Source: Anaerohalosphaeraceae bacterium (GTDB taxonomy: Bacteria; Planctomycetota; Phycisphaerae; Sedimentisphaerales; Anaerohalosphaeraceae). Taken from it: a DNA stretch of 64,000 bases. The position numbers and the translations under genes were made by a program. The DNA lies in contig JBNRMN010000033.1 of assembly GCA_050309605.1 (NCBI GenBank), forward strand, positions 128,001 to 192,000, in the 5' to 3' direction. The notes under the pieces are model-generated. The model was not told the origin of the DNA, made no database searches, and saw only the letters and a list, made by a program, of their open reading frames with translations. This document shows, piece by piece, positions 55,603 to 61,228 of this stretch (positions are counted from its first letter, which is position 1; the number at the start of each line of letters is the position of its first letter).

Positions 55603-57702
55603 TTATGGCATTTTTTTGAGACCTTCCCACTTAACGACCCATTTTCCATCGTCCGGAAATCCGGGGGCATTGCGCGTCGGGGCGTCGTCCCAGCCGGCGG
55701 CCATCATCGCCGCCGCTGTCAGCAGGCCGCCGTTGCCGGGCATATAGACCGGCAGGCCTTCACGCTGCCAGTTGTGTCCGTTGGGCAGATAGCGGTTTTT
55801 CTGCACTTCCAGCAGCAGGGCGTCAATCGCCCAATCCGGCCTGCCGACCCGTGCGGCGGTCATCGCGATCATCGGATAATCCCAGCCCCACGTGTCGCTC
55901 CAGTCCCAGTTGCGCAACACATGTTCGACGGTCCGCGTCATCACCGCCTCGTTGACCATTCGCGATTTGGGCAGCACGCCCCAGGCGGCCAGCATACAGG
56001 GATGTCCGCCGTCGGCAACGAGCGGATGTTCCTGCTCCACATAGACACCGTTGTGTATCGGCAGTATCGCCAGATTACCCGCGATGCGCTCCCACATCGC
56101 GGCCGGTTCCAGTCCGAGCCGCTGACGCCACTGGGAGGCGGTGCGCAGCGCCCAATGCCAATAGGCCAGCTCAAAGGCAGCATTTTTGGTTTCGGCATAG
56201 CGTTTCGGCTCAAATTCCCGTGCCGAAATCAGCGGCGGCCCCAGTACAAAACTTTCGCTGAGGTCGTCCCAGTGTGCAAAATCGGCCATAAACGTCGCCG
56301 TTTCAAAAACGATGTCCTGGTATTTTTCCAGCGTTTCAGTGGTCGGATTTTCACGATAAAGCAGCTCGGCATAATAAATCGGATGCGGTTGCTGCCAAAT
56401 CAGCAGCGGCCCGATGCCCGAAGGAGCGTCCTGACCGTCGGGGCCGACCATCTTGGGCCAGCGCACGCCGGCATAGCCCTGCCGCTCGGCAATCTGTCGC
56501 GCGACCGGCATAATCTGTTCATACCACGCCAGCGACCGCTCGAATAAAGCACTGCGTCCCCAGAGCATCCACTGCACGCCGTGCCACCAGTGCATTTCCA
56601 AATGAAACTTGCCGAACCAGCTCGTGCAGGTCAGCCCCGTCTCGGCCGGCGGGTACTTCTGGGCAGACTGAAGACCCATCAGATACTGCGACAGCACAAT
56701 CCGCCGTTCCAGCTCATACCAGCGTTCGTCGCTGCTTTCGGACAAGTCAATCGCTCCGCCGGAGGTCCAGAAATTGTGCCAATGAGTCGCGGCCTTGCGG
56801 CTGATGTCCTCGAATGATTCGACGGGCGAATCGATGGGCGTCTGTGAAAAGAGGACCGAAAACGTCAACGTCTCATCGCCGTTCGGCCCGAACAGCAGGT
56901 ATTCGTGACGATCAGTCTTGAGCAGCTTGCCGTTGTGGTGAATGCGGCAGAAATACGTCAGTGTATCCAGTTCGCGCTCGATCAGGGCGCTGGTTTCGTT
57001 TTCGCGGACTGTTTGGGTCCGATGTTTGCTCGGCTGCGACCAGTCGGCCGGGTCATTGCCCCATGTCGCCGACGGATACGGAAAACGCAGGGCGATTTTG
57101 ACACGTCCGTCCCGCAGCAGGGCGCTGTCAATCGACACGGCGATGCCGTCATAGTCGGGATGTGCGACGGTGTGTACTTCGACCGGCTGGCCGTCGATGG
57201 CAAATCGGCTGACGAGCCGTCCTTCCCACAGCCGCAGTGTTTGGTTGATTTGCGACAGATCGGCCACGGTCAGCCGCCTGCCGTTTTCATCCGTCAGGAC
57301 AAAGCCGATCTGCCCCAGATGCGTTTGATGCGGATTGGCTCGCAGATAGCGTCCGGCGGGGGATTCACTGATGATGTTGTACTCCACCGCTCGGCCGTAG
57401 GTATCGGCCTTGACAAAGGTATCGGCCAGCGTATAGCCCTCGGTGTTTTCGAATCGGTTCCAGCCCCACTCGGCCATTGTGGTCAAGGGAATCGTGTTCG
57501 CGTAGTGGGCGGGAAAACTTTGCAGCCCGGTTACATCGGCGTTAAACGCAAATCGCCCGTTGCCTACCGACAGCGGCGCCAGCGGATCGGCGGCGGTCAG
57601 CTTGACATCGTGTCGGCTGACAAGCGCCTTGCGGTCAATCCCCTCTGCCCGGATTGCACCGCCAACCACCGCGACCCACACCAACGCCATCCGAATGTCC
57701 AT
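55603..57702 (-). CDS. Secreted six-hairpin glycoside hydrolase (GH65/GH95-like)
   Basis: LVSRH, LSVGNGRFAFNADVTGLQ, WFGKFHLEM, WGWDYPM, PGNGGLL; GGAGG RBS. Confidence 0.75.
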   Translation of the reverse strand: MDIRMALVWVAVVGGAIRAEGIDRKALVSRHDVKLTAADPLAPLSVGNGRFAFNADVTGLQSFPAHYANTIPLTTMAEWGWNRFENTEGYTLADTFVKADTYGRAVEYNIISESPAGRYLRANPHQTHLGQIGFVLTDENGRRLTVADLSQINQTLRLWEGRLVSRFAIDGQPVEVHTVAHPDYDGIAVSIDSALLRDGRVKIALRFPYPSATWGNDPADWSQPSKHRTQTVRENETSALIERELDTLTYFCRIHHNGKLLKTDRHEYLLFGPNGDETLTFSVLFSQTPIDSPVESFEDISRKAATHWHNFWTSGGAIDLSESSDERWYELERRIVLSQYLMGLQSAQKYPPAETGLTCTSWFGKFHLEMHWWHGVQWMLWGRSALFERSLAWYEQIMPVARQIAERQGYAGVRWPKMVGPDGQDAPSGIGPLLIWQQPHPIYYAELLYRENPTTETLEKYQDIVFETATFMADFAHWDDLSESFVLGPPLISAREFEPKRYAETKNAAFELAYWHWALRTASQWRQRLGLEPAAMWERIAGNLAILPIHNGVYVEQEHPLVADGGHPCMLAAWGVLPKSRMVNEAVMTRTVEHVLRNWDWSDTWGWDYPMIAMTAARVGRPDWAIDALLLEVQKNRYLPNGHNWQREGLPVYMPGNGGLLTAAAMMAAGWDDAPTRNAPGFPDDGKWVVKWEGLKKMP

Positions 57703-57739
57703 ACTTGGCCTCCCAATATGCAATGATCAATAATCAATT

Positions 57740-58294
57740 GAAAGAGTGGGTCTGTAAGCCGAGTTCTGTATCCCCGCACCTAAAAATTGATATTGATCAT
57801 TATCCATCGATGATTGTTGTGTGAACGCAATATCAACGTTGTCAATCTTCAATTTTTAGGTGCGGGGCAGCGGTCATTAAACTGGACCGGCCGTTGCCGA
57901 CCGGCTCTGACGACAGATCTGCCCGTCGTCAAGCGACCTACCCGCTGTGAAACGCCCGGGCCGGGCACACAGCATACTTGGTCTTGCAGGCGGTGGGGTT
58001 TGCCGTGCCGCCGCTGTTACCAGCGACGCGGTGCGCTCTTACCGCACCATTTCACCCTTACCTGTGCCCCGAAGGGCCATCGGCGGTGTCTTTTCTGCGG
58101 CACTTTCCCGCGGGTTGCCCCGGGCGGCCGTTAGCCGCCACCGTGCCCTGTCCTGCTCGGACTTTCCTCCCCGCACCTAAAAAAGTATGCACATATCACC
58201 CTCGTTGTGCTGTTCTTTGCACTCAGAACCACAGCACACAATCGTATCAGACCTACTTTTTTAGGTGCGGGGCGACCGCCCGACCCACTCTTTC
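57740..58294 (-). ncRNA. rnpB: RNase P RNA (class A) with two long inserted helices
   Basis: P1 GAAAGAGTGGGTC/GACCCACTCTTTC; GAGGAAAGTCCGAGC; AGTGCCGCAGAAA; GGTAAGGGTGAAATGGTGCGGTAAGAGCGCACC; GGCAAACCCCACC; ACAGAACTCGGCTTA. Confidence 0.95.
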
Positions 58295-58413
58295 AGAGTC
58301 CTATTATAAAGGGTAATGAGCGCAGATAAAGAAGGTTCGCCTGAAAATCGGCTTTTTGGCCTGTTTTTTGTGAAAAAAGGCCGCGATTGGAATCATCGCG
58401 GCCCGACAGAGAG

Positions 58414-60667: not shown

Positions 60668-60901
60668 TTACAGGTCCTGAGGTTTTACGGTGCTGCGACG
60701 ATTGGCCTCGGTCCGCTTGCAGGCCGCATCCAGAATCTCGTAAACGCACTCGTTCAGCGCCGTCGCGGTTTCGGACGAACTCATCATCCCTTTGTCTTTG
60801 ATGTACGCCTTGACCTTGCTGGTGACAACCAGCATTTCCTTTGCGGCGGCCTTTTTGGCGGCCTTTGCTTTCTTCTTTGCAGCAGCTTTTTTCTTTGCCA
60901 T
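60668..60901 (-). CDS. Bacterial histone-fold protein (Bd0055/HBb-like) with Lys/Ala-rich N-terminal tail
   Basis: GGAGGTG RBS; LVVTSKVKAYIKDKGMMSSSET...RTEANRRSTVKPQDL aligns with the Bdellovibrio histone and ends in the histone R-x-T-V-x-x-x-D motif. Confidence 0.88.
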   Translation of the reverse strand: MAKKKAAAKKKAKAAKKAAAKEMLVVTSKVKAYIKDKGMMSSSETATALNECVYEILDAACKRTEANRRSTVKPQDL

Positions 60902-61228
60902 TTCGGCACCTCCATGTTGAAAATAACGTTCCAATAAAATCGACTCTCGCGAGCCGAAAACCACGATTACGGGTATTTTGAAAAGGTTTTGGCGTTATTT
61001 CAACAAAAAAATCCACAAAAATTCACATATTTTGCACTTATAGAGCCTATAAATGCAAAATTTGCAGGTTTTTCAGCTGCGCCGCTTCTGCGGGATTGAC
61101 TTTTTCCGTCATTTCCGCGGTTTTTGGTTAATCGCTTCGCGTCTATGGTCGATTTGAAATTCGTAAACCGTGGCCTTCGAAAAGGCTTTAACCCTGCGAG
61201 TGCTGTATTTTTCGCGGAGAGCAATGCG

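What the first reader, a model, noticed from the sequence alone, without database searches (positions are those of the whole stretch)
57772..58272. RNase P RNA with two long inserted helices closed by an identical 15-bp stem
Seen: hairpins at 58169-58272 (P3 position, just before GAGGAAAGTC) and 57772-57867 (P19 position, just before ACAGAACTCGGCTTA) both begin CCCCGCACCTAAAAA and end TTTTTAGGTGCGGGG. Each extends to a perfect 19-bp stem, and the AT-rich interiors are unrelated to each other. The gene is ~555 nt. Established: P3 and P19 tolerate length variation, and typical bacterial rnpB is about 350-400 nt. Inference: either a MITE-like element with these terminal repeats inserted twice at neutral sites, or gene conversion between helices. 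The four arms could also cross-pair into an alternative fold or recombine and invert or delete the catalytic core.
Basis: partly seen in the sequence, partly recalled or inferred. Interest (0 to 1): 0.7.

Follow-up and report, generated by a model that had tools for sequence, protein, structure and literature searches.

The report
Mobile hairpins forming RNase P helices
The two look-alike long stems in this bacterium's RNase P RNA gene are copies of a roughly 100-base mobile hairpin that keeps replacing the outer helices of RNase P RNA and ribosomal RNA in its relatives, and that shares its ends with a tiny nuclease-gene cassette in the same genome's 23S rRNA gene.

Summary
Observation confirmed. 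The only full RNase P RNA gene found (57739-58291, minus; RF00010 268 bits) has P3 and P19 replaced by 104- and 96-nt hairpins with the same 15-nt arms, 19-bp stems and unrelated interiors. The exact 15-mer occurs nowhere else in the genome, but variants close two inserts in the 23S gene; one encloses an 87-aa GIY-YIG nuclease gene. The same clamp (CCCGCACC...GGTGCGGG) sits in P3, P12, P19 or the P16/17 region of 21 of 57 related genes (a set enriched for long genes), patchily on the tree. It also occurs in 16S, 23S and gene gaps in several phyla; 18 of 92 copies outside the RNA genes I could recognise show a 4-nt target duplication (2.0 expected). Best reading: gene-less members of a mobile hairpin family, kept because they rebuild a peripheral helix. 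The GIY-YIG cassette as mobiliser and excision by RNase III are inferred, not shown. Cross-pairing of the four arms is not supported. The scan found this element class before on other DNA, and repeat insertions in RNase P RNA are known from Rickettsia. New variant of a known kind.

The parts
57739..58291 (-). RNase P RNA gene (class A), 553 nt; 353 nt without the two hairpins
   Evidence: RF00010 268.1 bits; the single match in the genome; lengths
58169..58272 (-). 104-nt clamp hairpin standing in the place of helix P3
   Evidence: the short native P3 of G001 and G003 shown
58254..58272 (-). 5' arm (in the RNA) of the P3 hairpin, 19 nt
58169..58187 (-). 3' arm of the P3 hairpin, 19 nt, running directly into the conserved P4 motif
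57868..58168 (-). uninterrupted core between the hairpins (P4 5' strand to P2 3' strand), including a normal short P12
57772..57867 (-). 96-nt clamp hairpin standing in the place of helix P19
   Evidence: short native P19 of G001
57849..57867 (-). 5' arm of the P19 hairpin, 19 nt
57772..57790 (-). 3' arm of the P19 hairpin, 19 nt
58282..58295 (-). P1 5' strand; pairs with 57739-57752 (14 of 14)
   Evidence: pair I7
58303..58308 (-). TATAAT hexamer just upstream of P1, a likely -10 box
   Evidence: position; the same hexamer is seen upstream of many related genes; the promoter scan did not list it; function inferred

Best explanation
Both hairpins are gene-less copies of a mobile inverted-repeat family, typically 100-105 bp, with a GC clamp (Y-CCCGCACC...GGTGCGGG-R) followed by an A/T tract and a freely diverging interior. 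SHOWN: the family occupies helix tips of RNase P RNA, 16S and 23S rRNA and gene gaps; it is present or absent among close relatives; copies outside RNA genes often carry a 4-nt target duplication; a 300-bp form with the same ends encloses a small GIY-YIG nuclease gene, and one such cassette lies in this genome's 23S gene. INFERRED: in RNA genes a copy survives only where its own stem takes over a dispensable outer helix in register, so P3 and P19 stay closed and the ribozyme core folds normally. The arms stay the same because they are the family's ends (here an A-tract variant) and are held by pairing, while the interiors drift. INFERRED, weaker: the GIY-YIG nuclease mobilises the family by nicking at hairpin DNA, and host RNase III may trim the long stems from the transcript.
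For: Same-genus G001 and G003 have short native P3 and P19; G000, G006 and G002 have clamp hairpins. 21 of 57 genes examined carry at least one (P19 15, P3 11, P12 9, P16/17 region 1); carriers sit beside non-carriers in several well-supported clades, for example G057 and G267 beside G180. In 70 genomes of the family 16 of 19 exact elements are in this gene, 2 in 16S, 1 in a gene gap. 4-nt duplication in 18 of 92, shuffle mean 2.0, maximum 8 in 2000; 0 of 21 in RNA genes. The nine nearest GIY-YIG proteins form one clade (99/96) and all lie inside such stems, at three sets of rRNA-type flanks; in 5 of the 9 the stop codon is the TAG of the right arm. 6 of 10 stem-bounded GIY-YIG cassettes outside RNA genes show the same 4-nt duplication. 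Between G000 and G006 the P3 arms are identical while the interior has diverged (75 of 104 overall).
Against: No mobility was observed. Only 1 of 157 gene-less interiors clearly matches a cassette interior, and neither of the window's does. In ten genomes chosen for holding elements only 2 of 51 GIY-YIG genes examined have this clamp around them. No exact cassette-sized clamp pair in 401 genomes of the phylum. G002 and G006 carry the hairpins but gave no match to this nuclease at E<=1e-8 (rRNA operons are often unassembled). The own cassette has lost its in-arm stop and reads 72 nt beyond the cassette. The window's copies have no target duplication. G-U against A-C departures in the stems are 16 against 10, no clear sign of selection on the RNA strand. 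The set of 57 genes was enriched by me for long genes.
Confidence: 0.72

Rival explanations
1. The hairpins are true intervening sequences: RNase III cuts both stems, so the mature RNase P RNA works as three base-paired pieces, as fragmented 23S rRNA does. The conserved clamp is the part left behind that holds the pieces together. This can be true alongside the best explanation.
For: Perfect 19-bp stems; RNase III is encoded; one family member sits at 23S model position about 583, which I recall as helix 25, a classical site named in PMC4990558 (passages); there the cut falls in mid-stem. G006's P19 interior has 7-nt periodicity (0.53 at lag 7) like the heptamers described for the Coxiella element.
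Against: No RNA of this organism was available. The window's own interiors show little 7-nt periodicity (0.37 and 0.27). No strand asymmetry in stem changes. One search found no paper joining these terms.
Confidence: 0.3
2. One ancestral insertion was copied from one helix to the other inside the gene (ectopic conversion or template switching), and this alone explains the twin arms.
For: In five related genes two hairpins share 79-95% of their interiors, in the same orientation. The A-tract variant is rare in the GTDB sample (1 of 121) yet shared by both copies here, while the two 23S copies of this genome differ from it.
Against: Interiors here are unrelated, also in G006 and G002 (53-61% by global alignment). 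A-tract arms are frequent among RNase P copies of other genera too. The pattern used for the GTDB scan shaped that sample.
Confidence: 0.2
3. The family is a REP-doublet or MITE moved in trans by an ordinary transposase (Y1/HUH or DDE); the GIY-YIG gene is only cargo.
For: Terminal inverted repeats, a 4-nt duplication and a tight length (21 of 35 arm pairs in two high-copy genomes are 99-104 bp) fit MITE anatomy (PMC2229807 passages). Few GIY-YIG genes of element-bearing genomes have the clamp.
Against: In 19 regions around arms in two high-copy genomes I recognised no transposase by eye among ORFs of 85 aa or more (no family scan run). Interiors fall into 94 groups among 121 elements, unlike a MITE family. 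The nuclease's stop codon lies inside the arm in 5 of 9 cassettes.
Confidence: 0.2
4. The four arms form a switch (alternative fold) or an invertible segment that controls RNase P.
For: The arms can cross-pair over 15 bp (pairs I3 and I4).
Against: Cross-pairing costs 17.5 kcal/mol and has probability about 1e-9. Relatives carry none, one, two or three hairpins at varying sites, so nothing depends on the pair.
Confidence: 0.03

Closest known systems
Rickettsia palindromic elements (RPE) in the tmRNA and M1 (RNase P) RNA genes (as reviewed in PMC2229807; passages read; the primary paper was not available)
   Same: About 100-150 bp stem-loop repeats with terminal inverted repeats, found between genes and inside the RNase P RNA gene, apparently tolerated.
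   Different: Other sequence and phylum; up to three copies per gene that replace the native helix; interiors not conserved; a nuclease cassette shares the ends; in this family the RNA genes are almost the only refuge.
23S rRNA intervening sequences excised by RNase III (Salmonella, Leptospira, Coxiella; PMC4990558, passages read)
   Same: A small loop is replaced by a long stem-loop bounded by inverted repeats, with or without an ORF; one copy here lies at what I recall as helix 25.
   Different: Also in RNase P RNA, 16S and gene gaps; the cargo is GIY-YIG, not S23p; excision untested.
GIY-YIG-encoding non-intron insertions in CPR rRNA genes (PMC11270868, passages read)
   Same: Small GIY-YIG ORFs at scattered rRNA stem-loop sites, unlike group I or II introns and, by the authors' view, outside homing.
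   Different: The passages I saw describe no shared terminal clamp, no gene-less copies in RNase P RNA and no target duplication; 'RNase P' does not occur in the main text.
Ssn nucleases and their SRM/NTS hairpins (PMC11893778; abstract, sections 8 and 10, passages read)
   Same: Single-domain GIY-YIG of about 90 aa tied to a hairpin repeat; the authors liken NTS-ssnA-NTS to a mobile element.
   Different: There a whole 20-50 nt hairpin stands on each side; here one stem encloses the gene or a 70-nt interior. The SRM pattern matches 0 of 121 elements.

Membership tests
Bacterial class A RNase P RNA | Full match to RF00010 with P1-P4 and the conserved regions intact | tested here: met
   268.1 bits, model 1-367; RnpA also encoded
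Bacterial class A RNase P RNA | Cleaves pre-tRNA | not testable with these tools
   needs an assay; it is the single match in a 99.7% complete genome
MITE / RPE-type repeat | Short, non-coding, terminal inverted repeats | tested here: met
MITE / RPE-type repeat | Target-site duplication | tested here: inconclusive
   met for the family (18 of 92 against 2.0); absent at RNA-gene copies (0 of 21) and at the window's two
MITE / RPE-type repeat | Many similar full-length copies in the genome | tested here: not met
   4 family members found in G000, with unrelated interiors; tens of arms in other genomes
MITE / RPE-type repeat | Cognate transposase with the same ends | tested here: inconclusive
   none recognised in 19 regions or among the long hairpins of the own genome; no transposase family scan was run
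rRNA intervening sequence (IVS) | Stem-loop replacing a helix tip of a stable RNA | tested here: met
rRNA intervening sequence (IVS) | Excised by RNase III without ligation | not testable with these tools
   no RNA reads of this organism; RNase III gene present
Ssn / SRM system | SRM degenerate motif flanking the gene | tested here: not met
   0 matches in the gene, the 23S cassette region and 121 elements; 1 of 54 GIY-YIG loci has one on one side
Ssn / SRM system | Protein in CDD family cd10448 | not testable with these tools
   no CDD here; Pfam GIY-YIG 2.7e-17; nearest solved relatives are UPF0213 proteins
Ssn / SRM system | Site-specific ssDNA cleavage | not testable with these tools
   needs purified protein; Tyr, Arg, His and Glu positions are invariant in 5 aligned copies (their catalytic role is recalled)
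Group I intron with homing endonuclease | Intron core RNA | tested here: not met
   no intron family at gathering score in L113; the 305-bp cassette is filled by the ORF; TIGR01453 18 bits against cut-off 56

The most novel reading that the evidence does not exclude
The hairpins belong to an undescribed class of minimal mobile elements run by an 85-aa GIY-YIG nuclease that insert at hairpin tips and gene junctions, and host RNase III removes them from transcripts, so that this organism's RNase P works as a naturally three-piece ribozyme.
Probability: 0.2. Interest if true: 0.82.

Novelty: new variant of a known kind. Interest (0 to 1): 0.48.

Why it matters
It shows a mobile DNA repeat rebuilding the outer helices of an essential ribozyme again and again, up to three in one gene, and ties the gene-less repeats to a nuclease cassette with the same ends and the same 4-nt duplication. 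That offers a testable answer to an open question: where intervening sequences of stable RNAs come from and how they move. A named, completely sequenced strain (Methylotuvimicrobium sp. KM1, L133) carries the clamp and a related nuclease in its 23S gene, so excision can be tested at the bench. In practice such insertions lower or truncate RNase P annotation.

Tried and rejected
Exact 15-mer elsewhere in the genome: none at 0 or 1 mismatch; 4 unpaired hits at 2. Public RNA: 24 runs listed, none above 0.13 of the words; 4 laid as contigs at 85% show relatives' cores and relatives with short helices, no cover of the interiors; uninformative for excision. Viral contigs: 0 elements and 2 weak partial nuclease hits. 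Cassette-sized exact clamp pairs: 0 of 401 phylum genomes. Homology between the two interiors, or to the other 34 RNase P copies and the 23S copy: only the G006 orthologues match. RNA-strand asymmetry of mismatches: 16 G-U against 10 A-C, not used. Duplications of other lengths: not enriched. No clamp in the assembled part of the own 16S (model 9-873) or, by eye, in the tmRNA. ESM Atlas gave only generic GIY-YIG clusters. Literature searches returned nothing; 43, 75 and 90 nothing relevant by listing; PMC7191817 (passages) gives 250-550 nt as the length range and does not mention insertions. Two paper ids recalled from memory were not held. No supplements were read; those of PMC11270868 may list cassette ends. 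No structure prediction was run.

Full report
OBSERVATION. The gene is a complete class A RNase P RNA on the minus strand, 57739-58291 (268.1 bits), the single match in a 99.7% complete genome; RnpA and RNase III are encoded. Helices P3 and P19 are 104- and 96-nt hairpins closed by perfect 19-bp stems whose first 15 bp are identical. Four matches in the window exceed all 100 shuffles. Without the hairpins the RNA has 353 nt; the interiors are unrelated. A second species, G006, has both hairpins with homologous interiors (z about 19), which excludes misassembly. The host looks like a Phycisphaerae planctomycete; this rests on resemblance to named records and earlier notes, not on a test.

THE EXACT MOTIF IS PRIVATE, THE FAMILY IS NOT. 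The 15-mer has 4 copies in the genome at 0 or 1 mismatch. A search on the 8-nt core found two further long hairpins, both in the 23S rRNA gene: G000:C1:63816-64120 (305 bp) and C1:64420-64522 (103 bp). They replace helix tips at about model positions 280 and 583 (I recall the second as helix 25). The first encloses an 87-aa GIY-YIG nuclease (Pfam 2.7e-17; nearest solved relatives UPF0213). It is the only small GIY-YIG gene found; a second hit lies in a 472-aa frame.

RELATIVES. I read 57 RNase P genes of the order, chosen partly for length. 21 carry the clamp, as detected: P19 15, P3 11, P12 9, P16/17 region 1 (one site re-assigned; the filter missed at least three more seen). In the own family 17 of 42 genes read carry it; 15 further matched genes were not read. 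On a tree of the cores (56 rows, L338 left out) carriers stand beside non-carriers in several supported clades. G001 and G003 of the same genus have short helices. Comparing empty and filled sites shows replacement in register: at P12 the native CCC-loop-GGG keeps its outer pairs and the loop is exchanged for the element; at P3 and P19 the native helix is gone. In five genes two hairpins are near copies of each other (79-95%), so elements also hop or convert within the gene. Across 70 genomes of the family, 16 of 19 exact elements are in this 0.5-kb gene, 2 in 16S and 1 before a protein gene; rRNA is under-assembled in such genomes, so its share is a minimum.

WIDER FAMILY. Of 121 elements 15 adjoin RNase P, 8 23S, 4 16S; 94 had no hit to my references. 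Interiors fall into 94 groups, two of which join gene-gap and RNA-gene copies. In two high-copy genomes the arms lie mostly at gene boundaries and 21 of 35 arm pairs span 99-104 bp. After removing duplicates, 18 of 92 copies outside recognised RNA genes have a 4-nt direct repeat just outside a Y...R pair (shuffle mean 2.0, maximum 8 of 2000); 0 of 21 RNA-gene copies do. This is the best evidence of DNA-level insertion.

THE NUCLEASE CASSETTE. In 201 genomes of the order the best matches to the nuclease (30 loci plus 2 second copies read) form a clade of nine (99/96), all inside 15-22 bp stems, 297-306 bp long, at three sets of rRNA-type flanks (two were confirmed against my 23S reference, the third is recalled). 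In five the stop codon is the TAG of the right arm; in this genome it is lost. Of 10 stem-bounded cassettes outside RNA genes 6 show the 4-nt duplication. A metagenome contig (L274) has an RNase P RNA gene with two clamp-like hairpins and a 308-bp GIY-YIG cassette inside it. Against a simple parent-derivative link: 1 of 157 gene-less interiors clearly matches a cassette, 2 of 51 GIY-YIG genes from ten element-bearing genomes have this clamp, and 0 of 401 phylum genomes have an exact cassette-sized pair.

HOW IT MOST LIKELY WORKS. Shown: family membership, patchy presence, helix replacement, target duplication outside RNA genes, shared ends with the cassette. Inferred: copies land widely, decay in gene gaps of this family, and persist in stable-RNA genes where the stem becomes a needed helix; arms are held by pairing and interiors drift (P3 arms identical, 75 of 104 overall between G000 and G006, core 325 of 331). 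The native fold dominates (probabilities 0.998 for both local stems, about 1e-9 for cross pairs; pseudoknots are not modelled). Weakly inferred: mobilisation by the nuclease, by analogy with Ssn proteins, which cut single-stranded DNA beside their hairpin (PMC11893778, sections 8 and 10); and trimming by RNase III, by analogy with 23S intervening sequences (PMC4990558, passages). No RNA data could test this.

COMPARISON AND NOVELTY. Repeats inside RNase P RNA are known for Rickettsia (PMC2229807, passages), and GIY-YIG ORFs in non-intron rRNA insertions for CPR bacteria (PMC11270868, passages). The element fails the SRM test (0 of 121) and is not an intron. I found no paper on this clamp family in nine searches of a library that lacks most subscription journals. 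This scan has noted the roughly 105-nt hairpin in planctomycete RNase P RNA and the hairpin-bounded GIY-YIG cassette several times on other DNA; those notes are unchecked and are not independent support. What this locus adds is both forms in one genome and counts for target duplication and enrichment. Verdict: real, a new variant of a known kind, interest 0.48.

Noticed in passing
G000:C1:63816-64120 (L113:5817-6121): 305-bp clamp-bounded cassette with an 87-aa GIY-YIG gene in a 23S helix tip; its stop codon in the arm is lost and the frame runs 72 nt into the rRNA.
   Followed up: yes
G000:C1:64420-64522: 103-bp gene-less clamp hairpin at a second 23S helix tip (recalled as helix 25).
   Followed up: partly
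L274:1390-2040: RNase P RNA gene of a metagenome contig with two clamp-like hairpins and a GIY-YIG cassette inside; the ORF has in-frame TGA codons, so either a recoded host or a broken gene.
   Followed up: partly
L133:601-1120 (Methylotuvimicrobium sp. KM1): 23S helix tip holding hairpin, GIY-YIG gene with its own short stem, and second hairpin: a layout like NTS-ssnA-NTS, in a named complete genome.
   Followed up: partly
L317, L314, L316, L322, L428: GIY-YIG cassettes inserted at ATGA or GTGA gene starts; the right arm supplies the start codon of the next gene.
   Followed up: partly
L032 (G009), L342 (G274), L109, L114: Clamp hairpins of about 195-207 nt with 7-nt repeat arms; element sizes cluster near 100, 200 and 300 bp, unexplained.
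   Followed up: no
G000 C1:40680, C33:16539, C52:9897, C63:30302-32650, C67:53402 and 61658, C92:55864, C95:13725, C96:19495: A different dispersed palindromic repeat family (GCCGCGCAAGCGGC-type) occurs in inverted pairs and clusters, REP-like.
   Followed up: no
window 60668-60964 (-): 98-aa frame whose later part is a small Lys/Ala-rich protein resembling bacterial histone-fold proteins (recalled); no Pfam match.
   Followed up: no
window 55603-57723 (-): About 700-aa probably exported protein directly downstream of the RNase P gene; no Pfam match; looks like a glycoside hydrolase-type fold by recall only.
   Followed up: no
L280, L281, L291, L315, L319, L320: Other small GIY-YIG genes flanked by tRNA-like pieces rather than by a clamp.
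   Followed up: no
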